This document shows positions 2 to 63,300 of a stretch of 64,000 nt of DNA, piece after piece; the stretch's first letter is position 1; each line of letters begins with the position of its first letter. The stretch comes from Minisyncoccota bacterium (lineage in GTDB: Bacteria; Patescibacteriota; Minisyncoccia; UBA6257; 2-01-FULL-56-20), in contig JALHNY010000001.1 in the NCBI GenBank assembly GCA_022843285.1, forward strand, positions 79,128-143,127, read 5' to 3'. A program made the position numbers and the translations under genes. The notes beneath the pieces were generated by a model. The model was not told the origin of the DNA and searched no databases. It saw only the letters and a program-made list of their open reading frames with translations.

Positions 2-1012
2 TTGCCAGATATAGAGGAGAGGATGAAGGTGGCGGGAGAATATCTGAATTCTGATCGGGAACCTGCGGGAGGGTGCGAATGCGTATACAAGGCACGTAAG
101 AAGCACTGTACGAGTTTCCAGCTATCAAACCCGCATATACCCGATTATTCCGTTCACGATTTGTCTGGCGTAAGTAAGAAGAAACTCGACCTTTTCGTCG
201 CGCGAGGCATCTTTGACCTGAACGATATTCCCGATGATTTTGAGCTGACAGAAAATCAAAAGAATCAAGTACTCGCGCACCAGCGGCAGAAGCCAATGAT
301 TGATACAAGGAGGATACAAGAGGAGCTTGGCACGCTTACATTCCCGCTCTATTTCTTCGACTACGAAGCATTCGGCCCAGCGATACCTGCATTCAGTGGA
401 TACGGTCCGTACAAACATATCCCGTTCCAGTTTTCTCTTCATGTACTTCGCACTTCCGATAGTCCCCTTGAGCACATAGAGTTTCTCCATGAGGATTTGT
501 CCGATCCGTCAGAGCGAGTTACCGAACTACTCAAAGAGCACGTGCCGCCCGGGGGAACCGTCATCGCGTGGTATAAGCACTTTGAGAGGATGGTCTGCAA
601 AGAAATTGGAGTGCGTTTGCCGCAACACGCTGCGTTTTTTGAGGAGTTCAACGGCCGCATTTACGATCTCATGGATGTGTTCCATGACCAGTACTACGTA
701 CACCCTGGCTTCAAGGGGAAGAGTTCTATAAAGAAAGTGCTACCGACACTTGCCGCTGATTTACGCTATGACCTTCTGAATATCAAAGAAGGCGGTCAGG
801 CCGCCGATGCGTGGTGGCGCATGGTATCGCCAGCTACTTCTCCCGAGGAGAAAGAACAAATCGCCCATGACCTTAAGGTGTATTGCGGCTTCGATACGTA
901 TGCTATGTATGCCATTTGGCATCATCTACATGAAATGGTTGCTGACGGCACAGTGTCCGCTCGATCCCTGTACGCGCCTATTCACGAGAATGAGAGATCA
1001 AACACCAAGTAA
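2..1012 (+). CDS. Nuclease-family domain protein (DUF2779-like; PD-(D/E)XK superfamily suspected), 5' end outside window
   Basis: ORF open to window edge; motifs FDYEAFGPAIP and VYCGFDTYAMYAIWHHL recalled from DUF2779-type proteins; region is lower GC (~48%) than rest of window. Confidence 0.4.
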   Translation: MPDIEERMKVAGEYLNSDREPAGGCECVYKARKKHCTSFQLSNPHIPDYSVHDLSGVSKKKLDLFVARGIFDLNDIPDDFELTENQKNQVLAHQRQKPMIDTRRIQEELGTLTFPLYFFDYEAFGPAIPAFSGYGPYKHIPFQFSLHVLRTSDSPLEHIEFLHEDLSDPSERVTELLKEHVPPGGTVIAWYKHFERMVCKEIGVRLPQHAAFFEEFNGRIYDLMDVFHDQYYVHPGFKGKSSIKKVLPTLAADLRYDLLNIKEGGQAADAWWRMVSPATSPEEKEQIAHDLKVYCGFDTYAMYAIWHHLHEMVADGTVSARSLYAPIHENERSNTK

Positions 1013-1167: not shown

Positions 1168-1179
1168 TATACTCCCCCC
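1168..1179 (+). promoter_or_regulatory. -10-like TATACT box 6 nt upstream of ATG (leaderless-type promoter)
   Basis: ggcTATACTccccccATG; same architecture recurs across window. Confidence 0.4.
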
Positions 1180-3054: not shown

Positions 3055-3144
3055 GGGCGCACTGTACCACGGACGGAGCCCGCGTGCGTGGCGGCAGCTC
3101 CTTGTCACTACGCCCCGCTGTCAGTATTCTTTTCCCCGACCTGA

Positions 3145-3217
3145 GCCCCTATAGCTCAGTTGGTAGAGCAGCTCCCTTTTAAGGAGACGGTCCTAGGTTC
3201 GAGCCCTAGTGGGGGCA
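3145..3217 (+). tRNA. tRNA-Lys (anticodon UUU)
   Basis: 73-nt cloverleaf folded by hand: acceptor GCCCCTA/TAGTGGGGGC, D-arm GCTC..GAGC, anticodon loop CTTTTAA, T-arm CTAGGTTCGAGCCCTAG; no encoded CCA. Confidence 0.9.
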
Positions 3218-3239
3218 CACCCTTTGCGTTTCTCAAGTC

Positions 3240-4493
3240 ATGACATCACACCCAAAGACGTTCCTCGGCATCATCATCGCCCTGACGGTGCTCGCCGGCG
3301 TCTTCGTGTACCCCTGGTCTCCGCTCGCGCAGTACCGGCCGTGGCGCCTCGGCCTCGACCTGGTCGGCGGGTCGCACCTGACGTACCAGGTTGACCTCTC
3401 GAGCGTCGCCGAGGCGGACCGCCCGTCCGTCCTCTCGGGCCTGCGCGACGTCATCGAGCGGCGCGTGAACCTCTTCGGCGTCAGCGAGCCGCAGGTGTAC
3501 GTCGCATCGAGCGGTGACACCAGCAACCTCGTCGTCGAGCTCGCGGGCATCCGCGACGTGGGGGAGGCCATCAAGCAGATCGGCGAGACCCCGCTCCTCG
3601 ACTTCCGCGAGGTTGAGGTCACCGGCAGCTCGACGGAGGACGTGCGGTTCATCCCGACCCCCCTCACCGGGCGCTTCGTCACGGGCGCGCAGGTGGTGTT
3701 CGACCCGAACACGCGCGCGCCGCAGGTCGCCCTCTCCTTCAACAGCGAGGGCGCGAAGATTTTCGCCGACCTGACCGAGCGCAACATCGGCAACCCGATC
3801 GCCATCTTCCTGGACAACAACATGATCTCGAGCCCGGTGGTGAACGACAAGATCACCGACGGCAACGCGGTCATCACGGGCGTCTCGCTCGAGGAGGGCA
3901 AGCAGCTCTCGGAGCGCTTCAACGCCGGCGCGCTGCCCGCGCCCATCGAGCTCGCGAGCCAGCGCACCGTGGACCCGTCCCTCGGCACGAACTCGCTGAA
4001 GACCGCCGCCGTCGCCGGCATGGTCGGCACGCTCGCGGTCATGCTCTTCATGGTCGCGTACTACCGCGTCCGCGGCCTGTACGCGGCGCTCGCGCTCGTC
4101 ATCTACGTCATCCTGACGCTCGCGCTCTTCAAGCTCATTCCGATCACCATGACGCTCGCGGGCCTCGCCGGCTTCATCCTGACCATCGGCATGGCCGTGG
4201 ACGCCAACATCCTCATCTTCGAGCGCATCAGGGAGGAGGAGCGGGACGGCAAGTCGCGGCACGCGGCCATCGTGGAGGGCTTCCAGCGCGCGTGGCCGAG
4301 CATCCGTGACTCCAACGTGAGCTCCATCATCACGGCGGTCATCCTGTACTACTTCACGAGCGGCTTCGTGCGCGGCTTCGCCCTGACGCTCCTCTTCGGC
4401 GTCCTCGTGTCCATGTTCTCCGCGATCACCACGACGCGCCTCTTCCTCCTCGCCTTCGCACCCAAGTCGCGCCCCGCGCACCACGCACGCTAA
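3240..4493 (+). CDS. secD: Protein translocase subunit SecD
   Basis: N-terminal TM, LDLVGGSHLTYQVD motif, C-terminal 6-TM SecD/SecF domain; stop overlaps secF start (TAATG). Confidence 0.9.
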   Translation: MTSHPKTFLGIIIALTVLAGVFVYPWSPLAQYRPWRLGLDLVGGSHLTYQVDLSSVAEADRPSVLSGLRDVIERRVNLFGVSEPQVYVASSGDTSNLVVELAGIRDVGEAIKQIGETPLLDFREVEVTGSSTEDVRFIPTPLTGRFVTGAQVVFDPNTRAPQVALSFNSEGAKIFADLTERNIGNPIAIFLDNNMISSPVVNDKITDGNAVITGVSLEEGKQLSERFNAGALPAPIELASQRTVDPSLGTNSLKTAAVAGMVGTLAVMLFMVAYYRVRGLYAALALVIYVILTLALFKLIPITMTLAGLAGFILTIGMAVDANILIFERIREEERDGKSRHAAIVEGFQRAWPSIRDSNVSSIITAVILYYFTSGFVRGFALTLLFGVLVSMFSAITTTRLFLLAFAPKSRPAHHAR

Positions 4494-5391: not shown

Positions 5392-5420
5392 TTGACGTAT
5401 CAGCCAAACTAAGTCATTAT
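5392..5420 (+). promoter_or_regulatory. sigma70-like promoter TTGACG-N17-CATTAT, ~15 nt before ATG 5436
   Basis: cTTGACGtatcagccaaactaagtCATTATtatcccacaaaaccgATG. Confidence 0.35.
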
Positions 5421-5435
5421 TATCCCACAAAACCG

Positions 5436-6467
5436 ATGTCCATCAACAAACTCATCGAGAACGCGTGGTCCCACCTCCAGCCCCGCCAGCAGGACATCCT
5501 CGCTGGCCGCTTTGGCGTCGGCGAGTACGACGAGCAGCAGACCCTCGCGGCTCTCGGCGACCGGTACGGCATCACGCGCGAGCGCGTCCGGCAGATTGAG
5601 TCCGCCGCGCTCGCATCGCTGCGCGAGGGCCTCTCCGAGTACCCCGAGGCGAAGGCCCTCGTGGAGAAGGTGCGCAAGGTGGTGAAGGAGCACGGGGGAG
5701 TGGCGTCCGTCGACCAGGTCATCGCGGGCACCCGCGCCGACGCGAAGGACATCACGCCGAACTCCCTGCAGCTCATCATCCGCGCGATGAACAGCATCCA
5801 CTACCACGCGGGTGACGACCGCTTCGTCGCCGCGTACGCGACCGACGCCGCGACCTTCAAGCAGGCCTCCGAGACCGTGTCGGCGTGGATCAAGCTCCTC
5901 GAGCAGAAGAAGGGCTCGGTCATCTCCGGTGACGCGTACCGCAAGCTGCTCTCGTCCTTCAGCAAGGACCGGGGCGTGCCGCTGCGCCACCTCGAGCACT
6001 TCGCGTCCCTCTCGAAGCAGATCGTCACGAACTCGTACGGCGAGACCGGCCTGTCCCACTGGACCGAGGTGAACCCGCGCACGGTCCGCGACCAGATCTA
6101 CCTCATCCTGCGCAAGCACGACGCGCCGCTCCACTTCGAGGAGATCGCGACCGCCATCAACAAGAGCGGCATCTCGGCGCGCCCGGCGCTCTCTGCGACC
6201 GTGCACAACGAGCTCATCAAGGACGAGCGCTTCGTGCTCGTCGGCCGCGGCAAGTACGCGCTCGCCGAAGCTGGGTACGAGCCCGGCACCGCCCGCGACG
6301 TGGTGCACCGCATCCTGTCCCAGAAGGGCCCGCTCACCCCGCCCGAGGTCATCCAGGCGGTGCAGAAGGAGCGCCTCTTCAAGCCGAACACCATTCTCGT
6401 GAACCTGCAGAACCGCCAGCACTTTACGCGCAACCCGGACGGCACGTACCAGGTTCGCGAAGCCTAG
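5436..6467 (+). CDS. HTH protein with sigma-70 region-4-like N-terminus and two C-terminal winged-helix-like repeats; first gene of 5-gene operon
   Basis: QTLAALGDRYGITRERVRQIESAAL resembles sigma70 region 4 HTH; repeated ...GKYALAE / ...GTYQV modules; 9-nt gap to next gene. Confidence 0.5.
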   Translation: MSINKLIENAWSHLQPRQQDILAGRFGVGEYDEQQTLAALGDRYGITRERVRQIESAALASLREGLSEYPEAKALVEKVRKVVKEHGGVASVDQVIAGTRADAKDITPNSLQLIIRAMNSIHYHAGDDRFVAAYATDAATFKQASETVSAWIKLLEQKKGSVISGDAYRKLLSSFSKDRGVPLRHLEHFASLSKQIVTNSYGETGLSHWTEVNPRTVRDQIYLILRKHDAPLHFEEIATAINKSGISARPALSATVHNELIKDERFVLVGRGKYALAEAGYEPGTARDVVHRILSQKGPLTPPEVIQAVQKERLFKPNTILVNLQNRQHFTRNPDGTYQVREA

Positions 6468-9996: not shown

Positions 9997-10056
9997 GGGT
10001 GGCAGTATAGCTGACTCTTTAGCAAGAACTGCACCGCGCCCTGGTATACTTGCTGC
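9997..10056. promoter_or_regulatory. Divergent intergenic region with TATACT boxes on both strands (minus 10004-10009, plus 10045-10050) feeding leaderless starts
   Basis: cagcTATACTgccacccATG (minus) and ggTATACTtgctgcGTG (plus). Confidence 0.45.
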
Positions 10057-11766: not shown

Positions 11767-12424
11767 GCCTAGGGTGCGCTTCTCGCTCCTCTCCGCCGCC
11801 CCCGAGGTGGCGGAGAGCTACGCGCGCTCGTCCATTCTCGGCCGCGCCCAGCGAGCCGGCCTCATCCAGGTGGACCTGGTGGCCCTCAGGGACTTCGCCG
11901 GTGACGCGCACCGCACCATCGACGACAAGCCCTTCGGCGGCGGGCCGGGCATGGTCCTGAAGGTGGAGCCGATCGTGCGAGCCGTGAGGAGCGTGCGCCC
12001 GCGCCCGGGCGCCACGAGCCGCGTCGTTCTGTTTTCGACGCGCGGCAAGCCGTTCACGCAGAAGGAGGCGAAGCGGCTCTCGAAGTACAGGCACCTCGTG
12101 CTCATCGCCGGGCGGTACGAGGGCGTGGACGAGCGCGTGGCTGAGCACGTCGCGGACGAGGAGATCTCCCTGGGTGACTTCGTGCTCACCGGGGGAGAGG
12201 TCCCGGCGCTCGCGGTGATAGACGCGGTGAGCCGCCTCGTACCCGGCGTGCTCGGCAAGTCCGAGTCCCTCGAGGAGGTGAACGGCAGCTTCCCCACGTA
12301 CACGAGGCCCGCCTCGTTCTCCCCGGGCAGGGGCAAGGAGACGTGGGACGTTCCCGAGGTGCTCGCGTCCGGCGACCACGGGGCGGTGGCAGCGTGGCGT
12401 CGCGCCTCGAGGGGGACGCGGTAG
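11747..12424 (+). CDS. trmD: tRNA (guanine37-N1)-methyltransferase TrmD
   Basis: DDKPFGGGPGMVLKVEP, GRYEGVDERV, SLGDFVLTGGE motifs; start may be slightly downstream (overlaps upstream gene by 20 nt). Confidence 0.85.
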   Translation: MKATKTRPRVRFSLLSAAPEVAESYARSSILGRAQRAGLIQVDLVALRDFAGDAHRTIDDKPFGGGPGMVLKVEPIVRAVRSVRPRPGATSRVVLFSTRGKPFTQKEAKRLSKYRHLVLIAGRYEGVDERVAEHVADEEISLGDFVLTGGEVPALAVIDAVSRLVPGVLGKSESLEEVNGSFPTYTRPASFSPGRGKETWDVPEVLASGDHGAVAAWRRASRGTR

Positions 12425-13506
12425 GGCTCGCGGCGGCCGGCGTCGTTTCGGGAACGGCGCTCGCCGCGCTGGGCGCCCCCGCTCTCCTCGCCGCGCTCTC
12501 CGCGTCCGCCCCGCTCGCTCTCCTGAGGCGCCGCGCCTGGGTGCTCAGCGCCGCCCTGCTGCTGGCGTTCGCGTCTTTCGCCACCCGGGTCGGCGGTGGC
12601 CGCTCCGCGCCCGATCCGCTCGCGACTTTGCGGGCGGGCCTGCTGGCCCCGCTGCTGCGGAGCGTGCCCGGCGATTCGGGCGCGCTCGCCGCGGGCCTCA
12701 CGCTCGGCGATGACGGGTACTTCAGCGCGGACGCCCGGCGCAGCTTCCGCGACAGCGCCACGACCCACCTCGTCGCCCTCTCGGGGTTCAACGTGGCGCT
12801 CATGGTCGGCGCGCTCCGGAGGGTTCTCGCGAGGCACCTGAGCCCGCGCCGCTTCGCGGTGCTCGCGTGCGCCGCCCTCCTGGCCTTCCTCTGCGTCACG
12901 GGCTTCCAGCCCTCCCTGCTGCGAGCCTCGCTCGCCGGCGGCGCGCTCCTGCTCGCCGGGGCGTGGGGGAGGCGCGCGGGGCACGCGCGCGTGGTGCTCC
13001 TGGTGGCCGCGGCGATGCTCGTCGCGGCGCCGTCCTTCGCCCTTCACCTCGGCTTCACGCTCTCCTTTGCCGCAGCGTGGGCGCTCGTTGCTACGGTGGG
13101 TGACGTGGAGAGGCTCCTCATCAGCGGCCGGGCGACGGCAAGGGACGTGATCGTCTCCGGCGTGATCCCGACGGCCGTCGCGCAGCTCGCCGTGCTGCCG
13201 GTGCTCCTCGCGGCGGTGGGCACGGTCCCGCTCGTGGGGTTCCTGGTGAACCCCGCCCTCGTTCCCGCGGTTCCCGCCCTCACCGCCGCGTCGTGGCTGC
13301 AGCTGCTCGCCTCGCACGTGTCGCCCGACGTCGCGACACTCGGCGGCGCGGTGACCGGCGCCGCGCTGAGCTTCGTCACGGGCGCCGCGGGCGCCGCCGC
13401 CAGCACCCCGCTCGCCGTTACGCTGCCCGTCCCGCCGCTCCTGGTCGTCGCCGGGTACGCCGCGTGGTTCCTCCTCGCCGTGCGCCGCAAGCCGCGCCTG
13501 TGGTGA
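12343..13506 (+). CDS. comEC: ComEC/Rec2 competence-channel (polytopic membrane) domain protein; start uncertain (ATG 12343 overlaps trmD; GTG 12541 alternative)
   Basis: HLVALSGFNVALMVGALRRVL signature of ComEC competence domain, many TM helices; ends at TGA overlapping GTG of next ORF (GTGGTGA). Confidence 0.6.
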   Translation: MGRSRGARVRRPRGGGSVASRLEGDAVGLAAAGVVSGTALAALGAPALLAALSASAPLALLRRRAWVLSAALLLAFASFATRVGGGRSAPDPLATLRAGLLAPLLRSVPGDSGALAAGLTLGDDGYFSADARRSFRDSATTHLVALSGFNVALMVGALRRVLARHLSPRRFAVLACAALLAFLCVTGFQPSLLRASLAGGALLLAGAWGRRAGHARVVLLVAAAMLVAAPSFALHLGFTLSFAAAWALVATVGDVERLLISGRATARDVIVSGVIPTAVAQLAVLPVLLAAVGTVPLVGFLVNPALVPAVPALTAASWLQLLASHVSPDVATLGGAVTGAALSFVTGAAGAAASTPLAVTLPVPPLLVVAGYAAWFLLAVRRKPRLW

Positions 13507-14315
13507 GGCACGGCTTCCTGCTCCTCCTCGCACTCACCGGGTGCGCGTGCCTGCTCACGCTGCCGCGGCGCGACTCAGCCCGCGCGCTCTCGCTCATCGA
13601 CGTGGGCCAGGGTGACGCCGCCTACATCCAGTCCGGCGGCGCCGGGCTGCTGGTCGACACGGGCGTCCCCGGGAGCTCCGCAGACCTCTCGGCACCCGGC
13701 CCGGTGAGCGCGCTCCTGGTTACGCACCTGGAGCGCGACCACGCGGGCGACGCGGCGAAGGTCATCGCGCGTGGCAACCTCGCCGCCGTTTTCTGGAACG
13801 GGCGCACCGATGCGCCGCTCCACGGCGATGTTGCGAGGGCAGCCGGTGCGGCTGGCGTGCCGCTCGTCGCGCTCGTGCCCGGTGACGTCCTCAGGGTGGG
13901 GGACGTGCGGCTCGAGGTCCTATCTCCCGGCCCCGGGTACCGGACGAGCGCGGACCACAACGACAGCTCTCTCGTCCTGCGCGCCGACTTTCCCGAGTTC
14001 TCGGCTCTCCTGACGGGGGACGCCCCCGCCGAGGTCGAGCGCCTCCTGCCGCCGGGTCCGGCGGACGTCGACGTCCTGAAGCTCGGCCACCACGGCTCCA
14101 AGACGGCCACCGGTGACCACCTCCTGGATCTCGCGACGCCCGCACTGGCCCTCGTGTCCGTCGGGGCGGGCAACCGCTACGGGCACCCCGCGCCCGAGGT
14201 GCTCGCGCGGCTCGAGGGGCGCGGCATCCCGCTCCTGCGCACGGACGAGCAGGGGACCATCACGGTGTTCTGGCGCGACGGCGAGCTGCGCGCCTCGACG
14301 TCGAGCGCGCGCTAG
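13503..14315 (+). CDS. comEC: ComEC C-terminal metallo-beta-lactamase (MBL) nuclease domain encoded as separate ORF (or frameshifted)
   Basis: TM helix then LIDVGQGDAAYI and LLVTHLERDHAGDA, KLGHHGSK MBL motifs; different frame from upstream ComEC ORF. Confidence 0.6.
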   Translation: MRHGFLLLLALTGCACLLTLPRRDSARALSLIDVGQGDAAYIQSGGAGLLVDTGVPGSSADLSAPGPVSALLVTHLERDHAGDAAKVIARGNLAAVFWNGRTDAPLHGDVARAAGAAGVPLVALVPGDVLRVGDVRLEVLSPGPGYRTSADHNDSSLVLRADFPEFSALLTGDAPAEVERLLPPGPADVDVLKLGHHGSKTATGDHLLDLATPALALVSVGAGNRYGHPAPEVLARLEGRGIPLLRTDEQGTITVFWRDGELRASTSSAR

Positions 14316-14325
14316 GGGTGCACGG

Positions 14326-14337
14326 TATACTGGGCTC
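14326..14337 (+). promoter_or_regulatory. TATACT box 6 nt upstream of GTG start of ftsW (leaderless)
   Basis: cggTATACTgggctcGTG. Confidence 0.45.
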
Positions 14338-15450: not shown

Positions 15451-15480
15451 TCCCGCGCCTGGTATACTCACGGCACTGCC

Positions 15481-17026: not shown

Positions 17027-17107
17027 GCAGTTTCCCAGGTGAGCGGTGCAACGAAGTCCGGGGCGAGAGCCTCGGATTTCTCCTTTTCTGGTGGTACAGT
17101 GACGTCC

Positions 17108-18514: not shown

Positions 18515-18563
18515 GTGCGGGGCTCCTGACCCGTTGTAGCGGGTAGTGTATACTTACCCCCGT

Positions 18564-20043: not shown

Positions 20044-20085
20044 GGTTTGGGAAAAGGTGGATAGTGTGTATACTTGGATACGATT

Positions 20086-23342: not shown

Positions 23343-23601
23343 TCAGCGGCAAAGTTGGCAATATCGAGATCTGTCGTTCGCTCCAACTTGCCTGAAACTG
23401 TGCCCCTCTTTCATTAGGCGCAGACTCAGACAAACCACGTGCTCTTGGGAACAAAAAACCTGCGCGCGGCAGATTTAACTGCCCGCAGTATACACCCGGC
23501 GGGGGCCCCCGGTCAAGCCCCTTTGTGGCAACAACTCGTGAAAAAGCTTGGAAATGCTAGCCCTTTTCGGCTATTTCGTGGTACTATCCACAGGCACTTT
23601 C

Positions 23602-26496: not shown

Positions 26497-26548
26497 GGTA
26501 CGTGGCGCAAGCCTAGCAGAATTGGGGCCCGTTCGCTAGGATACGGGC

Positions 26549-32034: not shown

Positions 32035-32132
32035 GGGCTAACTGTACCGCACGCGCCCCTCCGCTACGTGGACATTCTTGCAATGTATGGCATGATGCTG
32101 AAACCGCATTTTGAAAGAGGAGAGGAAAGCAA

Positions 32133-33152: not shown

Positions 33153-33255
33153 CAGTACACACACTGTACAGGAACGCCCGCCGCGGTGCGTTGACTAAAC
33201 TCTAAATTGTGTTTACGTTACGTACAGAGACTGAACAACACGAGGAAAACTGAAT

Positions 33256-35410: not shown

Positions 35411-35422
35411 GCGGCTATCGTA

Positions 35423-36278: not shown

Positions 36279-37040
36279 CTACTTCTCGGCGTGGTGCTTC
36301 TTGCCAGCCACGAAGCCCTCGACCGCCTTCAGGATTTCGAGCGGCACCGTGAAGATAATCGTGTTGGACTGGTCCGACGACACGTCGTTGATGGACTGGA
36401 GCGTGCGCAGGTGGAGCGCGCCGTCCACGCCCGAGAGGATGCGCGCTGCCTCCGCCATGTTCTGGGCGGCCGCGAGCTCACCCTCGGAGTTGATGATGAC
36501 CGCGCGCTTCTCGCGCTCCGCCTCGGCCTGCTTGGCGATGGTGCGCTCCATGTCCCCCGGCAGGCTGATGTCCTTAAGTTCCACGTTGCTCACCTTGAGG
36601 CCCCACGCGTCCGTCTCGCGGTCCACGATGTCCCTGATGCGCTCCGCAATCTTCTCGCGGTTGGCGAGCAGCTCGTCGAGCGTCGCCTCTCCCACCACGT
36701 TGCGCATGGTGGTCTGCGCGTACTGCGAGATGGCGTAGAAGAAGTTCTCCACCTCCAAAATGGCACGCTCCGCCGAGCTCACGCGGTAGTAGATGACCGC
36801 GTTCACGGTCACCGAGACGTTGTCGCGCGTGATCGCGCGCTGGTCCGGCACGTCGACCGCCTTCACGCGCATGTCCACCTTCCGGTAGCTCTGGAACACC
36901 GGGACCACGAGGCGCCACCCCGGCGCCATGGTCCCCGTGAAGCGGCCCATGGTGAACTTCAGGCCCACCTCGTACTGGTTGATCTGCTTGAGGCTCGCGA
37001 AGAGCACCAGGAGCAGGAAAATAACAGTGAAGAACGTCAT
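36279..37040 (-). CDS. SPFH/band-7 (stomatin/prohibitin-like) membrane protein
   Basis: N-terminal TM, QYEVGLKFTMGRF, ...RDNVSVTVNAVIYYRV...; true start ATG 37038-37040 (ORF-track extends to 37934 spuriously). Confidence 0.8.
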   Translation of the reverse strand: MTFFTVIFLLLVLFASLKQINQYEVGLKFTMGRFTGTMAPGWRLVVPVFQSYRKVDMRVKAVDVPDQRAITRDNVSVTVNAVIYYRVSSAERAILEVENFFYAISQYAQTTMRNVVGEATLDELLANREKIAERIRDIVDRETDAWGLKVSNVELKDISLPGDMERTIAKQAEAEREKRAVIINSEGELAAAQNMAEAARILSGVDGALHLRTLQSINDVSSDQSNTIIFTVPLEILKAVEGFVAGKKHHAEK

Positions 37041-37076
37041 GCGCCGAGTATAGCACCGGTCAGGTATACTGTGCGC
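37041..37076. promoter_or_regulatory. Divergent leaderless promoter pair: TATACT-N6-ATG on both strands
   Basis: minus: gtgcTATACTcggcgcATG (SPFH); plus: aggTATACTgtgcgcATG (META-domain gene). Confidence 0.5.
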
Positions 37077-37568
37077 ATGACCAAAAAAGTGATTTTCGTT
37101 GCCATCCTTGCCCTCATCGTGGCAGCCGCGTTCTTCATTGCCGACATGGAGCAGACGAAGGCTCCCGAAGTGGCCACCACCGAGCAGCCCAGCGGCACGC
37201 CACAGCAGGCGAACTCCCCCGCCGCGCCCGGCGTCGACGGCACGCGCTGGGAGTGGCGGCAGACGGTGAACGCCGACGGCACGGTGACCAAGCCCGCCGA
37301 TCCCTCGAAGTTCGTCATCACATTCAGCGGCGACACGTTCTCCAGCACCACGGACTGCAACTCCATGCGCGGCCTGCTCGCGGTGGACGGCGAGGTCATG
37401 AGCATGGGGCAGATCGCGAGCACGAAGATGTTCTGCGAGGGAAGCCTGGAGGTTGAGTACGCCCAGGACCTCCAGCTCGTGGGCTCCCACCAGATCTCCG
37501 GCGACACCCTGACCCTCATCCAGCTGAAGGACGCGGGCACGATGACCTTCGCACGGGTGAACGGCTAG
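37077..37568 (+). CDS. META/HslJ-like domain protein with N-terminal membrane anchor
   Basis: TM then ...FSGDTFSSTTDCNSMRGLLAVDGEVMSMGQIASTKMFCEG... resembles META (DUF306) motif; ORF-track start 36204 spurious. Confidence 0.45.
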   Translation: MTKKVIFVAILALIVAAAFFIADMEQTKAPEVATTEQPSGTPQQANSPAAPGVDGTRWEWRQTVNADGTVTKPADPSKFVITFSGDTFSSTTDCNSMRGLLAVDGEVMSMGQIASTKMFCEGSLEVEYAQDLQLVGSHQISGDTLTLIQLKDAGTMTFARVNG

Positions 37569-39635: not shown

Positions 39636-39839
39636 TTACTTGGATTCACGGATCATGCGCTCGACCTCCTCGCGCGAGACGAGGTTGCGCGCCCTGATGG
39701 CCTTCTCCACCTCCTCGCGAATGACCTCTTCCATCATGCCCTTGCTCTCCTTGGCCTTCTCGAGGAGGTCCTTGATCTGGTCCGGGCTCATGCCCTTGAG
39801 CATCTCCTGGGCGCCCTTCAGCTGTCCGAAGATGCTCAT
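39636..39839 (-). CDS. UbiK/BMFP (YqiC)-like small coiled-coil protein
   Basis: ...[16 protein letters not shown]... resembles UbiK DLVSREEFDVQ segment. Confidence 0.35.
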
Positions 39840-40072
39840 GCGACCGGCGCCGCGTCCGGTGCGACCTCGTCCTCGGGGTTGCTCTCGCGGTCGGCGATGA
39901 GCTGCTCGAGGAGGGCTACCTGCTCACCCTTCTGGGTGGCGAGCTGGTCCCAGAACGCGAGGAGCTCCTCGTCCCCCTCCGCGTCCTCCCGGTAGTCGTT
40001 GAGGATGCGCCAGAGGCTCTTGTGCTCCTGCACGGCTTGCATCATGAGGTTATACACGTTGTTGTCGTACAT
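39836..40072 (-). CDS. Hypothetical small acidic protein (78 aa)
   Basis: leaderless TACTAT-N6-ATG upstream; first gene of 4-gene minus-strand operon ending in nth. Confidence 0.35.
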
Positions 40073-40114
40073 GCGTGCATAGTACCATACCGTGGCTCAC
40101 CAAAATCAACTTCC

Positions 40115-41061: not shown

Positions 41062-41129
41062 GGGATTTGCTTTGGCACATCTTACCACGACCTTGCCCAG
41101 AGGCCTCAATTTCCGTACCTTGAACGCTC

Positions 41130-42596
41130 ATGCCCAAAGCAGCAGCACCCACGGGAGAAGTCGTCCTCCGCTTCGACGGGGTCTCCTTCGAGTACAGCAA
41201 CCAGAAGCCCATCCTCGATGACGTCTCCTTTTCGGTGCGCCGCGGAGCGAAGATCACGCTCATGGGACAAAACGGTGCCGGCAAGAGCACCATCTTCCAG
41301 CTCATCACGCGTGACCTGAAGCCGGAGGGCAAGGTGGTCACGGACAAGGATGCGAGCATCGCCATTGCGCGGCAGGTCATCCCCCGCGCCGAGCTCGCCC
41401 TGTCCGTGCGTGACTTCTTCGGCGCCGTCTTCTCTGACGTCCCCCGCGATTTGGACAAGCGCATCGCCCGCGTGCTCGACGCGGTCAACCTCGAGGCGAA
41501 CCTGGACCGCGCGGTCTCCGAGTTCTCCGGTGGCCAGCAGGCGCGCCTCCTCCTCGCGCAAGCGCTCATCCAAGATCCGGACATTCTGCTGCTCGACGAG
41601 CCGACGAACAACCTCGACAAGGCGGGCATCGAGCACCTCGTCGCGTTCCTACTCGAGACTGATGCCACCGTGCTCGTCATTAGCCACGACGCGGACTTCC
41701 TCAACAGTTTCTCGACGGGCGTCCTGTACCTGGACCTGCACACCCGCAAGGTGGAGCAGTACACCGGCAACTACTTCTCCGTGGTGAAGGAAATCGCCGC
41801 GCGCCTCGAGCGCGAGCGGCAGAAGAACGTGCGCATTGCCAAGGAGATTGCCCACCGCAAGGAGCAGGCCAACTTCTTCGCGCAGAAGGGCGGCCACATG
41901 CGCGACGTGGCCAAGAAGATGCGCGACAAGATCGACGAGCTCGAGGACGACGTCGTCGAGGTGCGCAGGGAGGACAAGACCATCCGCCCGTTCACCATTC
42001 CGGAGCAACCCGACCTGGGCCGCATCCTGGTCGAGATCACGAGCCTCGACGTCATGCGCAAGACGGGCCCCGCCGCGCGCCCCGTGAAGCTCGAGATGCG
42101 CAAGAATGAGCACCTGCACCTGACCGGCCCCAACGGCACCGGCAAGTCCACGCTCCTGCGCGCAATCGTCGCCGGCAAAGCCGCGGGCGTGAAGGTGCAG
42201 GACGGCCTCAAGGTCGGCTACTACAGCCAGGACTTCAGCAACCTGGACCACGACAAGGTGGTGTACGAGGTGCTCCGCGACGAGATTCAGGGCGGCACGG
42301 ACCAGGAGCTGCGCAGCCACGCGGCGGGCTTCCTCATAGACGCGGAGATCATCCGCACCAGGGTCGGCGCCCTCTCCGAAGGACAGAAGGGCCTCGTGGC
42401 CTTCGCGCGCCTCGCCCTGACCAAGCCGGGCCTCCTCATCCTCGATGAGCCGACCAACCACATCAACTTCCGGCACATTCCCGTGATCGCGAAGGCGCTC
42501 GACAGGTACGCCGGCGCGATGATCCTGGTGTCCCACGTTCCCGAGTTCGTGAAGCAGATTCGCATCGACCACACGATTGATCTGGGAAAAATCTGA
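41130..42596 (+). CDS. ABC-F family ATPase (tandem ABC domains, no TM; translation-associated)
   Basis: two Walker A (GQNGAGKST, GPNGTGKST), two signatures (FSGGQQARL, LSEGQKGLV), inter-domain linker. Confidence 0.85.
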   Translation: MPKAAAPTGEVVLRFDGVSFEYSNQKPILDDVSFSVRRGAKITLMGQNGAGKSTIFQLITRDLKPEGKVVTDKDASIAIARQVIPRAELALSVRDFFGAVFSDVPRDLDKRIARVLDAVNLEANLDRAVSEFSGGQQARLLLAQALIQDPDILLLDEPTNNLDKAGIEHLVAFLLETDATVLVISHDADFLNSFSTGVLYLDLHTRKVEQYTGNYFSVVKEIAARLERERQKNVRIAKEIAHRKEQANFFAQKGGHMRDVAKKMRDKIDELEDDVVEVRREDKTIRPFTIPEQPDLGRILVEITSLDVMRKTGPAARPVKLEMRKNEHLHLTGPNGTGKSTLLRAIVAGKAAGVKVQDGLKVGYYSQDFSNLDHDKVVYEVLRDEIQGGTDQELRSHAAGFLIDAEIIRTRVGALSEGQKGLVAFARLALTKPGLLILDEPTNHINFRHIPVIAKALDRYAGAMILVSHVPEFVKQIRIDHTIDLGKI

Positions 42597-42727: not shown

Positions 42728-42752
42728 GAGGCGGCCCAGAGCCGCCCTTTTT
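42728..42752 (+). terminator. Rho-independent terminator GAGGCGGCccagaGCCGCCCTTTTT
   Basis: 6-bp GC stem + T5, 130 nt after ABC-F stop. Confidence 0.55.
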
Positions 42753-42758
42753 GTGCCG

Positions 42759-42770
42759 TATACTTGCAGC
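42759..42770 (+). promoter_or_regulatory. TATACT-N6-ATG leaderless promoter box for bcp
   Basis: cgTATACTtgcagcATG. Confidence 0.45.
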
Positions 42771-43262: not shown

Positions 43263-43274
43263 TATACTTCCCGC
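43263..43274 (+). promoter_or_regulatory. TATACT-N6-ATG leaderless promoter box
   Basis: tggTATACTtcccgcATG. Confidence 0.45.
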
Positions 43275-43439
43275 ATGTCCAACATCTCTCAGGAATTCGT
43301 TTCCGGCGAGCGCCGCCCGTACAAGCTCGCTCTCGGCAAGATCAACGCTAGCTCCCTCTCCGGATTCATCGCCGGCGCGATCGTCGCGTCGATCATTTTC
43401 CTCACCGGAATTCTCCTCTCCATCTACTTCTTCCAGTAG
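43275..43439 (+). CDS. Small membrane protein (54 aa)
   Basis: C-terminal TM GFIAGAIVASIIFLTGILLSIYFF; not in ORF track (<60 aa). Confidence 0.35.
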   Translation: MSNISQEFVSGERRPYKLALGKINASSLSGFIAGAIVASIIFLTGILLSIYFFQ

Positions 43440-44319: not shown

Positions 44320-44330
44320 CCATTTTACAA

Positions 44331-48820: not shown

Positions 48821-48901
48821 CGGGGGTAGTGGGCCGAGTATAGCTCATTTGCGAGCGGCTGGGTACCCAAAAGAGCTTGAAAACAGGGGGCTTCTAGCCC
48901 G

Positions 48902-49848: not shown

Positions 49849-49862
49849 GCCCTGAGTGTACA

Positions 49863-54691: not shown

Positions 54692-55954
54692 CTACTCGTA
54701 GATGAGGCGAATGACCTCCTCGATGGACGTGACGCCCGCGGCCGCCTTCTCGACGCCGTCTCGCATCATGGTCTTCATGCCCTCCTTCACGGCCTGCTGC
54801 TTGATGTCCGCAGCCGATGCCCGCTCGAGGACGAGCTTCTGGATGCCCGGTGTCATGGGCAGCACCTCGCGGATGCCGATGCGGCCGCGGAACCCCGAGT
54901 GGTGGCACTGGTCGCAGCCGGGCGAGGTCCACAGCTGCTCGAGGTGCTCGTCGTCCGCGTCGTCGCCGAGAATCTCCATGACGCCCTTGCGCTCCTTCGC
55001 GTCCACGGGGCGCACCACCTTGCAGTCCGGGCAGAGCGTGCGCACGAGGCGCTGGCCCATGGCGACGTTGACCGTGCTCGCGACCAGGAACGGGGGCACG
55101 CCCATGTCCATGAGGCGCGGGAAGGTGGTTGCCGCGTCGTTGGTGTGCAGCGTGGAGAGCACGAGGTGGCCGGTCAGCGCGGCGTTCACCGCGATGCCCG
55201 CGGTCTCCTGGTCGCGGATTTCACCGACCATCAGGATGTTCGGATCCTGGCGCAGAATGGAGCGGAGTCCAGACGCGAACGTGAAGCCGACCTGCGCGTT
55301 GGTCTGCATTTGCGTCACGCCGGGCAGCGCGTACTCGATGGGGTCCTCAATGGTGATGATGGAGCGGTCCGCCTGGTTGAGCTCCTTGAGAATGGTGTAC
55401 AGCGTCGTGGTCTTCCCGGAGCCGGTGGGGCCGTTTGCGAGAATCATGCCGTACGGGCGCTTGATCGCTTTCCGCACGCGCTCCAGCTGGTCCGGTGGGA
55501 AGCCGAGCGAGTCGAGGGTGAACGCCTGGTTCTCGGCGAGGACGCGGAGCACCGCGTTCTCGCCGTGGTACGTCGGCGCGATGGAGACGCGCACCGCGAC
55601 CGTCTCGTCCCCTATCTTCACCTTGAGGCGGCCGTCCTGCGGCACCAGGTGCTCGTCCGTGCGGAGACCGCACATGACCTTGATGCGGCTGATGAGCTCG
55701 TCGTGGAGAGACATCGGAATGGGCATCTCCTCGAGCGCGTCCTGGAGCATGCCGTCTATGCGGAAGCGCAGGCGCACCGATTCCTCGGTGGGCTCGATGT
55801 GCACGTCCGAAGTTTTCGCCGTGTACGCGTACTCGAGGATCTGGTCCACGAGGCTGACCACGCTCACGTCCGTGGCATCTTTGCCTATCGTCTCCTTAAT
55901 CGCGGCGCGCACCGCATCGAGGTCTCTCATGTGCCGTAAGTATAGCAGGCTCAT
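54692..55954 (-). CDS. pilB: Type IV pilus extension ATPase PilB/GspE family (short form without N-terminal N1 domain)
   Basis: Walker A GPTGSGKTTT, Asp/His boxes, tetracysteine CPDC...CDQC zinc motif characteristic of PilB/GspE. Confidence 0.85.
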   Translation of the reverse strand: MSLLYLRHMRDLDAVRAAIKETIGKDATDVSVVSLVDQILEYAYTAKTSDVHIEPTEESVRLRFRIDGMLQDALEEMPIPMSLHDELISRIKVMCGLRTDEHLVPQDGRLKVKIGDETVAVRVSIAPTYHGENAVLRVLAENQAFTLDSLGFPPDQLERVRKAIKRPYGMILANGPTGSGKTTTLYTILKELNQADRSIITIEDPIEYALPGVTQMQTNAQVGFTFASGLRSILRQDPNILMVGEIRDQETAGIAVNAALTGHLVLSTLHTNDAATTFPRLMDMGVPPFLVASTVNVAMGQRLVRTLCPDCKVVRPVDAKERKGVMEILGDDADDEHLEQLWTSPGCDQCHHSGFRGRIGIREVLPMTPGIQKLVLERASAADIKQQAVKEGMKTMMRDGVEKAAAGVTSIEEVIRLIYE

Positions 55955-58705: not shown

Positions 58706-58744
58706 CTGGTCAGTGTAGCACCCGCCGGCTACGGGGCTAGCGCG

Positions 58745-59746: not shown

Positions 59747-59809
59747 ACGCTCTGTTTAACGATTTCTGCGCGCCGCGCTTACGCGTGGCTGGTGCGGCCA
59801 GTATACCAG

Positions 59810-63222: not shown

Positions 63223-63300
63223 GTACGAGGCGGATTCTATGCGCTACTCCCCCGCCGGGCAACCTCCGCCGGGACACCTATCCCCAGGAGACAAAAGCTT

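What the first reader, a model, noticed from the sequence alone, without database searches (positions are those of the whole stretch)
37041..37079. Pervasive GTATACT (TAnnnT) box 4-12 nt upstream of start codons implies leaderless mRNAs
The same hexamer sits immediately upstream of many starts, on both strands. TATACT-N6 precedes starts at 1168-1173, 10045-10050 (GTG), 14326-14331 (GTG), 37065-37070, 42759-42764 and 43263-43268, and on the minus strand at 37047-37052. The exoX gene has TATACT-N7. Variants occur upstream of the helicase start 3054 (TACAGT-N5), gltX 17108 (TACAGT-N7), start 26549 (TAGGAT-N6), start 40072 (TACTAT-N6) and uvrB 58705 (TACACT-N4). Longer spacings of 9-12 nt occur at 18564, 20086 and 15481. 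With transcription starting about 7 nt after a -10 box, these transcripts would begin at or within a few nt of the start codon. Most of these genes lack a Shine-Dalgarno. The few laterally acquired-looking genes (3D-domain gene, 22163, 28214, 32133) instead have classic AGGAG sites.
Basis: seen in the sequence. Interest (0 to 1): 0.6.

Follow-up and report, generated by a model that had tools for sequence, protein, structure and literature searches.

The report
Promoter boxes abutting start codons
In this high-GC genome of an uncultured ultra-small bacterium (Patescibacteria/Parcubacteria), about half of the transcription units have a promoter "-10 box" placed so close to the start codon that the mRNA should begin at or within a few bases of it. 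This is the leaderless-mRNA layout already well known from Deinococcus and Actinobacteria, but I found no report of it for this group.

Summary
TATACT occurs 15 times against 2 expected. Thirteen copies lie 6-16 nt upstream of an ATG/GTG that opens a coding-type ORF, eight of them at exactly 6 nt. With the general -10 pattern TANNNT and start codons chosen without reference to the motif, 14 of 62 genes have the box at exactly N6, against about 1.2 at any other spacing. The boxes behave as sigma-70-type -10 elements. An extended -10 TGn precedes 11 of 27 of them, against 5% of other TANNNT. C occupies -1 at 13 of 14 N6 sites, which gives a Y-1 R+1 Y+2 start element 7 bp after the box. Boxes and spacing are conserved at orthologous genes in five related contigs with independent gene calls, including the flagged 36-bp divergent region. 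Leaderless transcription is therefore the best reading, though no transcription start is mapped. The organism is not Deinococcus. UvrB, the SPFH protein and the gene content place it in Patescibacteria (Parcubacteria, near Liptonbacteria). The same N6/N7 peak appears in 76 other Patescibacteria loci. It is absent from E. coli and Bacilli controls and present in a Deinococcus control. This is a known kind of architecture in a taxon where I found no published report.

The parts
37047..37052 (-). -10 box TATACT (preceded by TGc), N6 before ATG 37040 of the SPFH/Band_7 gene (36279-37040)
   Evidence: The same start is used in independent gene calls on Logan and JGI contigs. The box and N6 spacing are conserved in L093 and L094.
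37065..37070 (+). -10 box TATACT, N6 before ATG 37077 of the META-domain gene (37077-37568). It stands back-to-back with the previous box in a 36-bp intergenic region.
   Evidence: An identical 163-aa product is called in public records. Conserved in L093 and L094.
1168..1173 (+). TATACT-N6-ATG 1180; the product has a prepilin-like N-terminus (MNSKKGFSTLS...)
3061..3066 (-). TGg-TACAGT-N6-ATG 3054, DEAD-box helicase
10045..10050 (+). TGg-TATACT-N6-GTG 10057, VirD4/TraG-like ATPase. This GTG is the only start candidate upstream of the domain.
10004..10009 (-). TATACT-N7-ATG 9996, ExoX-like exonuclease; divergent partner of 10057 across a 60-bp intergenic region
14326..14331 (+). TATACT-N6-GTG 14338, FtsW; the box begins 10 nt after the comEC stop codon
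26537..26542 (+). TAGGAT-N6-GTG 26549, 100-aa ORF without a Pfam match
32041..32046 (-). TACAGT-N6-GTG 32034, AddA/UvrD-type helicase-nuclease (first codon of the open frame)
35417..35422 (-). TGa-TACGAT-N6-ATG 35410, FAD-linked oxidase. The TGA stop of the upstream gene supplies the TGn.
   Evidence: Conserved in L094.
40079..40084 (-). TGg-TACTAT-N6-ATG 40072, 78-aa ORF; divergent from mscL (ATG 40115) across 42 bp
42759..42764 (+). TATACT-N6-ATG 42771, AhpC/Bcp peroxiredoxin. The box lies 12 nt after a terminator hairpin (42730-42746).
43263..43268 (+). TGg-TATACT-N6-ATG 43275, 54-aa ORF
49855..49860 (-). TACACT-N6-ATG 49848, 148-aa ORF at the end of the pilus operon
58712..58717 (-). TGc-TACACT-N6-ATG 58705, uvrB
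   Evidence: Orthologues carry TAGACT-N6 (L083, L086) and TAAACT-N8 (L084).
17095..17100 (+). TGg-TACAGT-N7-ATG 17108, gltX
41116..41121 (+). TACCTT-N8-ATG 41130, ABC-F ATPase; TTGCCC lies 17 nt upstream
   Evidence: L094 carries TACCGT-N8.
55939..55944 (-). TGc-TATACT-N8-ATG 55930, pilB
   Evidence: TGCTATACT is invariant in L083 and L086, at N10 and N9.
44322..44327 (-). TAAAAT-N8-ATG 44313, directly after terminator hairpin 44358-44337
18549..18554 (+). TATACT-N9-ATG 18564, M23 peptidase (predicted leader of about 3 nt)
33163..33168 (-). TACAGT-N10-ATG 33152, DedA/VTT protein
20069..20074 (+). TATACT-N11-ATG 20086, RarA/MgsA
63234..63239 (-). TAGAAT-N11-ATG 63222, mreB, with a -35-like TTGCCC 17 nt upstream
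   Evidence: TTGC-N17-TAGAAT-N11-ATG is invariant in four genomes.
15463..15468 (+). TGg-TATACT-N12-ATG 15481, murG
5418..5423 (+). TATTAT-N12-ATG 5436, Sigma70_r4 + HARE-HTH protein
26510..26515 (-). TGc-TAGGCT-N13-ATG 26496, S41 peptidase
48837..48842 (-). TATACT-N16-ATG 48820, uvrA (predicted leader of about 10 nt, no SD)
59800..59805 (-). TGg-TATACT with no start codon nearby; about 47 nt upstream of ATG 59746 (M23 peptidase): a leadered transcript
23487..23516 (-). Full canonical promoter TTGACC-N18-TATACT with no adjacent start codon. It shows TATACT serving as a -10 box independently of translation starts.

Best explanation
The TATACT/TAnnnT hexamers are the -10 elements of housekeeping (sigma-70-family) promoters, often of the extended -10 type (TGnTAnnnT) and mostly without a recognisable -35. 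In this genome they sit so that RNA polymerase should start 7 bp downstream, on the A or G of the ATG/GTG (N6, 14 genes), or 1-7 nt before it (N7-N13, 12 genes).

The resulting mRNAs have no room for a Shine-Dalgarno sequence. They would be translated by the leaderless route, in which a 70S ribosome or initiation complex binds the 5'-terminal AUG/GUG directly. Downstream genes in operons follow their predecessor's stop codon by 0-9 nt (or overlap it) without an SD, which suggests termination-reinitiation. About eight leadered genes use a GGAG-type SD.

Shown here: the motif, its spacing, its statistics, its promoter-like flanks, its conservation and the taxon. Inferred: the transcription start positions and the mode of translation.
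For: - **Enrichment and spacing.** TATACT is 15 against 2.0 expected. There is a sharp N6 peak: 22 against 7.2, 15 against 2.4, and 14 of 62 against 1.2 with motif-blind starts.
- **Method controls.** E. coli K-12 shows no peak (4 against 6.7 +/- 4.4). The Deinococcus radiodurans MP1 megaplasmid shows one (10 against 3.9 +/- 1.6). The window gives 14 against 2.2 +/- 1.4.
- **Promoter flanks.** TGn precedes 7 of 14 N6 boxes and 11 of 27 start-associated boxes, against 11 of 224 other TANNNT (Fisher p = 9e-7). C is at -1 in 13 of 14 N6 sites (binomial p = 5e-6). This puts a YRY start element 7 bp after the -10, the preferred TSS geometry in PMC12641261.
- **TATACT works as a -10 without a start codon.** It occurs in a full TTGACC-N18-TATACT promoter. 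TAGAAT occurs in a TTGC-N17-TAGAAT promoter that is invariant in four genomes.
- **Start codons.** 10 ATG, 4 GTG, 0 TTG at N6 sites, as in D. deserti leaderless genes (PMC4007540).
- **Starts supported independently.** Pfam domains begin 6-26 residues after the proposed starts. Public gene calls use identical starts for SPFH and META.
- **Conservation.** The 36-bp divergent region is nearly identical in L093 although the coding flanks have diverged. In L094 both genes keep N6 boxes despite an inserted NUDIX gene. The uvrB, pilB, mreB, FAD-oxidase and ABC-F boxes are conserved.
- **Operon position.** Boxes at N6-N13 precede 23 of 39 first genes against 5 of 24 internal genes (p = 0.004).
- **Compact intergenic regions.** Terminator hairpins lie 9-12 nt before boxes at 42759 and 44327.
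Against: - No transcription start site, RNA 5' end or N-terminal peptide is available for this organism.
- Most N6 boxes lack any -35, and the standard -35/-10 scan finds none of them.
- Four N6 boxes lie at co-directional junctions of 25 nt or less (14338, 35410, 49848, 53615). For N6 alone, the contrast between first and internal genes is not significant (11 of 39 against 4 of 24, p = 0.37).
- The box at 53615 (TAGGGT) overlaps a stop codon and may be chance.
- Several starts rest on my own curation of 2-3 candidates per gene.
- 5'-GUG is a poor leaderless start in E. coli, although it works in Deinococcus.
Confidence: 0.85

Rival explanations
1. The boxes are real -10 elements, but polymerase starts a few bases away from the codon. 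The mRNAs then carry very short leaders of 1-7 nt, or start inside the ORF with translation beginning at a downstream codon. 'Leaderless' would be only approximately right.
For: Twelve further boxes lie at N7-N13. The mreB box is fixed at N11 in four genomes, so short leaders clearly exist in this clade. TSS distance varies by +/- 1-2 nt in all bacteria.
Against: The sharp mode at exactly N6 and the C at -1 in 13 of 14 N6 sites point to the first base of the codon. In D. deserti, 47% of TSSs fall exactly on the first base with the same sequence layout. Leaders under 6 nt are functionally leaderless anyway.
Confidence: 0.08
2. The hexamer is a non-Shine-Dalgarno ribosome-binding or translation-enhancing signal inside a longer leader, as in Bacteroidetes-type 'group B' genomes. 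It would not be a promoter.
For: SD motifs are rare here: about 8 of 65 genes. A subgroup of Parcubacteria lacks the anti-SD (PMC9297842), so some non-SD mechanism is needed.
Against: The motif matches the -10 consensus, with TGn upstream and YR downstream. It is mostly absent from operon-internal genes, whereas group B motifs precede all genes (PMC6028130). It occurs with a -35 and without any start codon. Terminators 9-12 nt upstream, and 36-60-bp divergent intergenic regions, leave no room for another promoter.
Confidence: 0.04
3. GTATAC is a palindrome, so the motif could be the operator of a global regulator or a restriction-modification-related site that happens to lie in intergenic DNA.
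For: Ten of 15 TATACT copies are GTATACT, which contains the palindrome GTATAC. Two copies face each other in the flagged region.
Against: Non-palindromic variants (TACAGT, TACACT, TAGACT, TACGAT, TAGGAT, TACTAT) occupy the same N6 position here and in relatives. Orientation is always towards the gene. Spacing to the start codon is fixed to the nucleotide, which an operator does not require.
Confidence: 0.02
4. Artefact of start-codon choice or base composition. TA-containing hexamers are confined to intergenic DNA in a genome with 91% GC3, so any intergenic TANNNT will lie near some ATG/GTG.
For: TAT and CAT codons are almost absent (TAT 1 against TAC 494), so TA-rich words are indeed largely excluded from coding sequence.
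Against: The internal control is the other spacings. Gaps 0-5 and 14-30 are at background while gap 6 is 6- to 11-fold higher. Control patterns of the same composition show no peak. Starts were chosen without the motif. Public gene callers agree.
Confidence: 0.01

Closest known systems
Leaderless transcriptome of Deinococcus deserti / D. radiodurans (de Groot et al. 2014, PMC4007540)
   Same: - High-GC genome with a TAnnnT -10 box directly upstream of ATG or GTG (not TTG) start codons.
- No conserved -35.
- A minority of leadered genes carry an SD.
- About 60% of transcription units are leaderless or nearly so; here 23 of 39 first genes have a box at N6-N13.
- My Deinococcus control shows the same N6 peak.
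   Different: - The phylum differs: Patescibacteria/Parcubacteria, not Deinococcota.
- The -10 consensus here is TATACT, with frequent TGn.
- Operon-internal genes here lack an SD.
- Nothing here has been mapped experimentally.
GeneMarkS-2 'group C' genomes (Lomsadze et al. 2018, PMC6028130); Mycobacterium tuberculosis and Streptomyces leaderless genes
   Same: The defining layout is shared: a Pribnow box 6-8 nt from the start of first genes in operons, with a large fraction of operons affected.
   Different: Group C was described as mainly Actinobacteria and Deinococcus-Thermus. The main text names no Patescibacteria, and its supplementary lists were not available to me. In group C the internal genes use an SD-type RBS, which I do not see here.
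Extended -10 (TGnTATAAT) sigma-70 promoters and the Y-1R+1Y+2 'start' element (PMC12641261)
   Same: TGn is enriched upstream of the boxes. The pyrimidine-purine-pyrimidine triplet is centred 7 bp after the box. Here the start codon itself supplies R+1 and Y+2.
   Different: The -35 is usually absent. The identity of the sigma factor in this organism is unknown.
Archaeal leaderless mRNAs (Haloferax, Sulfolobus)
   Same: A 5'-terminal start codon and no SD.
   Different: There the promoter is a TATA box/BRE about 26 nt upstream of the start. Here it is a bacterial -10 box at 6 nt.

Membership tests
Bacterial leaderless-transcription genome class (GeneMarkS-2 group C; Deinococcus/Actinobacteria type) | Pribnow-like -10 motif located about 6-8 nt upstream of gene starts | tested here: met
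   N6 peak of 14 of 62 genes against 1.2 at other gaps with motif-blind starts. 14 N6, 2 N7 and 3 N8 sites with coordinates.
Bacterial leaderless-transcription genome class (GeneMarkS-2 group C; Deinococcus/Actinobacteria type) | A substantial share (25% or more) of first genes in operons is affected | tested here: met
   16 of 39 first genes (41%) at N6-N8 and 23 of 39 (59%) at N6-N13.
Bacterial leaderless-transcription genome class (GeneMarkS-2 group C; Deinococcus/Actinobacteria type) | Leaderless starts are ATG or GTG, essentially never TTG | tested here: met
   10 ATG, 4 GTG, 0 TTG at N6 sites; compare D. deserti at 83%/17%/0%.
Bacterial leaderless-transcription genome class (GeneMarkS-2 group C; Deinococcus/Actinobacteria type) | Internal operon genes and leadered genes use an SD-type RBS | tested here: inconclusive
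   About 8 leadered genes carry GGAG 7-11 nt upstream. Operon-internal genes show stop-N0-9-ATG junctions without an SD. The motif-centred SD scan is too noisy at this GC content.
Bacterial leaderless-transcription genome class (GeneMarkS-2 group C; Deinococcus/Actinobacteria type) | Primary transcript 5' ends map to the first base of the start codon | not testable with these tools
   No transcriptome data are reachable. The relevant samples are SRR15359043, SRR33155350 and SRR28154521-3.
Sigma-70-family -10 / extended -10 promoter | TAnnnT hexamer with a TGn one base upstream | tested here: met
   TGn in 11 of 27 start-associated boxes against 11 of 224 other TANNNT (p = 9e-7).
Sigma-70-family -10 / extended -10 promoter | -35 element (TTGACA-like) 16-18 bp upstream | tested here: not met
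   No -35 consensus in the alignment of 25 boxes. The standard scan finds none of the N6 promoters. A -35 is present only at mreB (TTGCCC-17), at 41130 (TTGCCC-17) and at the orphan promoter 23516-23487 (TTGACC-18). This is as in Deinococcus, where no -35 was found either.
Sigma-70-family -10 / extended -10 promoter | Purine start preceded by a pyrimidine, 7-8 bp after the hexamer | tested here: met
   C at -1 in 13 of 14 N6 sites, followed by A/G then T; the criterion comes from PMC12641261.
Sigma-70-family -10 / extended -10 promoter | Conserved at orthologous positions while flanks diverge | tested here: met
   The SPFH/META region in L093 and L094; uvrB, mreB, pilB, FAD oxidase and ABC-F in L083, L084, L086 and L094.
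Sigma-70-family -10 / extended -10 promoter | Binds RNA polymerase holoenzyme and directs initiation | not testable with these tools
   Needs in vitro transcription or a reporter assay.
Non-SD ribosome-binding motif (GeneMarkS-2 group B, Bacteroidetes type) | The same motif lies upstream of first and internal genes alike, inside the transcribed leader | tested here: not met
   23 of 39 first genes against 5 of 24 internal genes. Terminators and divergent starts leave 12-36 bp upstream.

The most novel reading that the evidence does not exclude
Leaderless transcription is not peculiar to this one high-GC genome. It may be a widespread and so far undescribed default across Patescibacteria (CPR).

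In 76 unrelated Patescibacteria loci (1.2 Mb), a TATAAT-like box followed by ATG at N6/N7 occurs 83 times against 22-30 at control spacings. The hits are spread over 49 loci. The signal is strongest in loci labelled Saccharibacteria and Paceibacterota, and SD signals there are weak.

Combined with SD-free stop-start coupling inside operons, this would explain how Parcubacteria that lack the anti-SD tail initiate translation.
Probability: 0.4. Interest if true: 0.55.

Novelty: new member of a known kind. Interest (0 to 1): 0.38.

Why it matters
Practical consequences:
- Gene starts in this lineage can be fixed to the nucleotide from the box.
- Several longest-ORF starts are wrong. The SPFH frame, for example, stays open 912 nt upstream of the real ATG.
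- Small leaderless ORFs of 54 and 78 aa become credible genes.

Biological consequences:
- It adds Patescibacteria to Actinobacteria and Deinococcus-Thermus as a lineage that uses leaderless mRNAs heavily.
- It suggests how organisms with reduced ribosomes, some of which lack the anti-SD sequence (PMC9297842), start translation.
- It gives ready-made minimal promoters for the emerging genetics of these bacteria. One example is the 36-bp bidirectional region at 37041-37076.

The architecture itself is textbook for other phyla, so a specialist would be interested but not astonished.

Tried and rejected
- **Deinococcus origin.** This was my first guess, from 65% GC, DinB and leaderless genes. It is rejected. 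The SPFH protein's best relatives among GTDB species are all Patescibacteria. UvrB's best named relatives are Liptonbacteria, Jorgensenbacteria and Paceibacterota. The gene content is CPR-like: type IV pilus, ComEC, VirD4-like, many orphans.
- **Standard -35/-10 consensus scan.** It does not detect the N6 promoters, so it is uninformative for promoters that have only a -10.
- **Motif-centred SD scan.** It is swamped by GAG codon periodicity at this GC content.
- **Pooling all CPR loci with plain TANNNT.** This showed only codon periodicity. The signal appeared only when I required a long ORF and a stricter box.
- **Exact-sequence look-up of UvrB.** It found nothing.
- **Rfam.** It finds only tRNA-Lys in the window and nothing behind the orphan promoter.
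- **Literature.** Searches pairing 'leaderless' with Patescibacteria, Saccharibacteria, Parcubacteria, candidate phyla radiation or CPR bacteria returned no paper on the subject. The TM7x transcriptome paper (PMID 35975994) and the GeneMarkS-2 supplementary tables are not held.
I could not find it by Pfam.
Full report
**1. The observation**

The flagged 39 bases read, on the + strand, cat-GCGCCG-AGTATA-GCACCGGTCAGG-TATACT-GTGCGC-atg. Two TATACT boxes face away from each other, 12 bp apart. Each lies exactly 6 nt from a start codon.
- ATG 37040 on the minus strand opens a 253-aa SPFH/Band_7 protein.
- ATG 37077 on the plus strand opens a 163-aa META-domain protein.
- The intergenic region is only 36 bp.

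TATACT occurs 15 times in the window against 2.0 +/- 1.4 in shuffles, and GTATACT 10 times against 0.47. Thirteen of the 15 copies are followed within 6-16 nt by an ATG/GTG that opens an ORF with the coding signature of this genome (GC3 about 0.9). Eight of these are at exactly 6 nt.

Two spacings were misread: helicase 3054 and uvrB 58705 are both N6. The start at 40072 is on the minus strand. I found three further N6 sites, at 32034, 35410 and 49848.

**2. Is it more than chance?**

Three tests were run.

(a) Motif-centred test. Of 251 TANNNT on both strands, an ATG/GTG follows at gap 6 in 22 cases against a mean of 7.2 at the other 40 gaps (Poisson p = 7e-6). For starts that open coding-type ORFs the count is 15 against 2.4 (p = 4e-8).

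(b) Gene-centred test, blind to the motif.
- I chose starts for 62 ORFs with a GC3 change-point likelihood and kept all candidates within 3.5 log units, which gave a mean of 2.3 per gene.
- Fourteen genes have TANNNT at exactly N6 against 1.2 at other gaps (p = 7e-11).
- Three control patterns of the same composition give about 1.

(c) Controls for the method.
- 50 kb of E. coli K-12 shows no peak: 4 against 6.7 +/- 4.4.
- 100 kb of the Deinococcus radiodurans MP1 megaplasmid, from a genus known for leaderless mRNAs, shows one: 10 against 3.9 +/- 1.6.
- The window gives 14 against 2.2 +/- 1.4.

**3. What the boxes are**

Aligned on the hexamer, the 27 start-associated boxes read TA[T/C]A[C/G]T. 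TATACT accounts for 14 of them. The others are TACAGT, TACACT, TAGGAT, TACGAT, TACTAT, TAGAAT, TAAAAT, TACCTT, TATTAT and TAGGCT.

Four features mark them as sigma-70-type -10 elements rather than translation signals.
- The extended -10 dinucleotide TG, one base upstream, is present in 11 of 27 boxes against 11 of 224 other TANNNT in the window (Fisher p = 9e-7).
- The base before the start codon is C in 13 of 14 N6 sites (binomial p = 5e-6). The triplet C-A/G-T is therefore a Y-1 R+1 Y+2 'start element' centred 7 bp after the hexamer. PMC12641261 shows that this geometry fixes the transcription start.
- The same hexamers occur in complete promoters with no start codon nearby. One is TTGACC-N18-TATACT at 23516-23487 on the minus strand. 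Another is TTGC-N17-TAGAAT upstream of mreB, invariant in four genomes.
- Terminator hairpins end 9-12 nt before the boxes at 42759 and 44327. Divergent gene pairs are separated by only 36, 42 and 60 bp. There is no room for another promoter further upstream.

Most N6 boxes have no -35, and the standard two-hexamer scan misses them. Deinococcus deserti is the same: a -10 motif precedes 94% of TSSs and no -35 was found (PMC4007540).

**4. Are the start codons right?**

- Pfam domains begin 6-26 residues after the proposed starts of the VirD4-like protein, FtsW, the AddA-like helicase, Bcp and UvrB. For 10057 and 32034 no other start candidate exists upstream of the domain.
- The product of 1180 begins with a prepilin-like MNSKKGFSTLS.
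- Gene calls made by others on Logan, JGI and NCBI records use the same starts for SPFH, META, the FAD oxidase and the orthologous uvrB genes.
- N6 sites use ATG ten times, GTG four times and TTG never. This is the pattern of experimentally verified leaderless genes in D. deserti.

**5. Conservation**

Five related contigs were recovered through UvrB (83-86% identity: L083, L084, L086) and through the META protein (83% and 65%: L093, L094). Their GC content is 60-68%.

| Gene or region | Window | Relatives |
|---|---|---|
| SPFH/META intergenic region | 36 bp; both boxes TATACT-N6 | L093: again 36 bp, differs at 4 positions outside the boxes, although the adjacent coding DNA has diverged |
| SPFH | TATACT-N6 | L094: TATAAT-N6, despite a NUDIX gene inserted between SPFH and META |
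| META | TATACT-N6 | L094: TATACT-N6 |
| uvrB | TACACT-N6 | TAGACT-N6 (L083, L086); TAAACT-N8 (L084) |
| pilB | TGCTATACT, N8 | TGCTATACT, N10 (L083) and N9 (L086) |
| FAD oxidase | TGATACGAT-N6 | Same in L094 |
| ABC-F | TACCTT-N8 | TACCGT-N8 (L094) |

Among 79 more distant orthologues of the SPFH gene, TANNNT sits at N6 in 11 against about 3.7 at other gaps.

**6. Genome-level picture in the window**

I count about 65 protein genes.
- Using a purely positional definition, in which 'internal' means a co-directional upstream gene ends 25 nt away or less, 23 of 39 first genes have a box at N6-N13 and 16 of 39 at N6-N8. The figures for internal genes are 5 of 24 and 4 of 24 (p = 0.004 and 0.054).
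- For N6 alone the contrast is not significant (11 of 39 against 4 of 24). Four N6 boxes sit at short junctions (14338, 35410, 49848, 53615). The first three look like internal promoters, and 35410 is conserved. The box at 53615 overlaps a stop codon and may be chance.
- About eight leadered genes carry GGAG 7-11 nt upstream: 16685, 22633, 28729, 32133, 33256, 38121, 49029 and 56043. They have lower GC3.
- Operon-internal genes typically follow a stop codon by 0-9 nt or overlap it (for example tagcATG) and have no SD.

**7. Mechanism proposed**

RNA polymerase holoenzyme recognises the -10 or extended -10 box, melts it and starts at the purine 7 bp downstream. At N6 genes that purine is the first base of the start codon. 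The mRNA has no 5' UTR and is bound through its 5'-terminal AUG/GUG. Downstream cistrons are reached by termination-reinitiation.

Shown here: the sequence layout, its statistics, its promoter-like context, its conservation and the taxon. Inferred: the actual 5' ends and the translation route. My confidence that these are promoters giving leaderless or near-leaderless mRNAs is 0.85.

**8. Whose genome is it?**

It is not Deinococcus.
- The SPFH protein's 80 best relatives among GTDB species representatives are Patescibacteria (63-85% identity), apart from a few Bacilli/Lachnospiraceae records and a few MAGs titled Gammaproteobacteria or Bdellovibrionales.
- UvrB's best named relatives are Candidatus Liptonbacteria (including the roughly 60% GC genomes GWC1_60_9 and RIFCSPHIGHO2_12_FULL_60_13), Jorgensenbacteria, Paceibacterota and 'Patescibacteria group'. 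Their lineage is Patescibacteria group; Parcubacteria group.
- The gene content fits: type IV pilus operon, ComEC, a VirD4-like ATPase and many orphan ORFs.

**9. Comparison with what is known**

The architecture is that of GeneMarkS-2 'group C' genomes, in which a Pribnow box lies 6-8 nt from the start. That group was described mainly for Actinobacteria and Deinococcus-Thermus (PMC6028130). It also matches the D. deserti transcriptome, which is 60% leaderless. In that sense the finding is a known kind.

What I could not find is any report of it in Patescibacteria. Five full-text searches returned nothing relevant. Tsurumaki et al. noted that about half of Parcubacteria lack the anti-SD motif and left open how they initiate translation (PMC9297842).

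**10. Extension beyond the window**

In the 76 Patescibacteria loci fetched for other reasons (1.2 Mb), a strict box TA[TC]A[ACT]T followed by an ATG opening an ORF of 100 codons or more occurs 83 times at N6/N7. Control gap pairs give 22 and 30. Hits fall in 49 loci against 19-23 for the controls.

| Group of loci | Count at N6 (and N7) | Background |
|---|---|---|
| Saccharibacteria-labelled | 14, 12 | 2.8 +/- 1.6 |
| Paceibacterota/Parcubacteria-labelled | 21 | 2.5 +/- 1.6 |
| Falkow-/Morani-/Uhrbacteria-labelled | 6 | 2.8 +/- 1.4 |
| Bacilli/Lachnospiraceae (4 loci) | 2 | 1.9 +/- 1.5 |

The peak is weak in the Falkow/Morani/Uhr group. The four Bacilli/Lachnospiraceae loci show no peak and instead have a clear AGGAG peak. 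This suggests, but does not prove, that leaderless genes are common across much of the radiation.

**11. Verdict**

It is a new member of a known kind: a familiar architecture in a taxon with no report I could find. Interest is moderate (0.38). It would rise if the radiation-wide reading holds and is indeed unpublished.

Noticed in passing
window, all called genes: TAG is the commonest stop codon (33 TAG, 19 TGA, 10 TAA among 62 genes), although the genome is 65% GC; my expectation from other high-GC bacteria is that TGA dominates. Usage varies among relatives: L083 has 15 TGA and 2 TAG, while L086, L093 and L094 are TAG-rich.
   Followed up: partly
window, e.g. 36277, 37570, 46260, 25285, 7686, 8178, 54690: Operon-internal genes start 0-9 nt after, or overlapping, the preceding stop codon (often ...TAGC-ATG). 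They have no Shine-Dalgarno motif, which suggests SD-independent termination-reinitiation coupling.
   Followed up: partly
window 23487-23516 (-) and downstream to 23342: An orphan, near-consensus promoter TTGACC-N18-TATACT. The predicted transcript begins with a short hairpin plus a T6 run (AGTTAAATCTGCCGCGCGCAGGTTTTTT) and runs 138 nt to ATG 23342. Rfam finds nothing there. It could be an attenuator, a small RNA or a leader with a 23-codon uORF.
   Followed up: partly
window 3125-3240 (+): tRNA-Lys(UUU) at 3145-3218 has its own TATTCT box 14 nt upstream. The secD ATG (3240) follows only 21 nt after the tRNA 3' end, with no SD and no box, so secDF may be co-transcribed with the tRNA and released by its processing.
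   Followed up: no
window 59800-59805 (-) to 59746: TGgTATACT lies about 47 nt upstream of the M23/PG_binding peptidase gene. This is one of the few clearly leadered transcripts, and the leader contains a CGCG-TAAG-CGCG hairpin and no SD.
   Followed up: no
window 36279-37040 (-); loci L003-L082: The SPFH/Band_7 protein is unusually conserved across very different Patescibacteria classes (63-85% identity). In L024 and L042 it lies within 10 kb of the same pilus operon and comEC that are found in this window.
   Followed up: partly
window 12394-14315 (+): ComEC (Competence domain plus metallo-beta-lactamase domain) is split over two overlapping frames (12394-13506 and 13500-14315). The region has unusually high GC (0.72) and a strong AT skew (-0.21), and both strands show coding-like GC3. 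This may be a frameshift, an assembly error or a real split.
   Followed up: no
window 5436-6467 (+): A 343-aa protein combines Sigma70 region 4 with a HARE-HTH domain (the latter is my recollection of RNA polymerase delta-type proteins). It heads a four-gene operon of orphan ORFs. This is an odd architecture for a transcription factor.
   Followed up: no
window, coding regions: Codon bias is extreme: TAT 1 against TAC 494, CAT 2 against CAC 346, TGT 3 against TGC 85. TA-containing words are almost excluded from genes, which makes the promoter boxes stand out.
   Followed up: yes
window 43275-43439 (+) and 39836-40072 (-): Two small ORFs (54 and 78 aa) have perfect TGgTATACT/TGgTACTAT-N6-ATG promoters, a coding-type GC3 and no Pfam match. 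They are likely real small proteins that length-based gene callers could miss.
   Followed up: partly
window 2-1012 (+): The left end of the window holds a DUF2779 gene in a lower-GC stretch (0.62).
   Followed up: no
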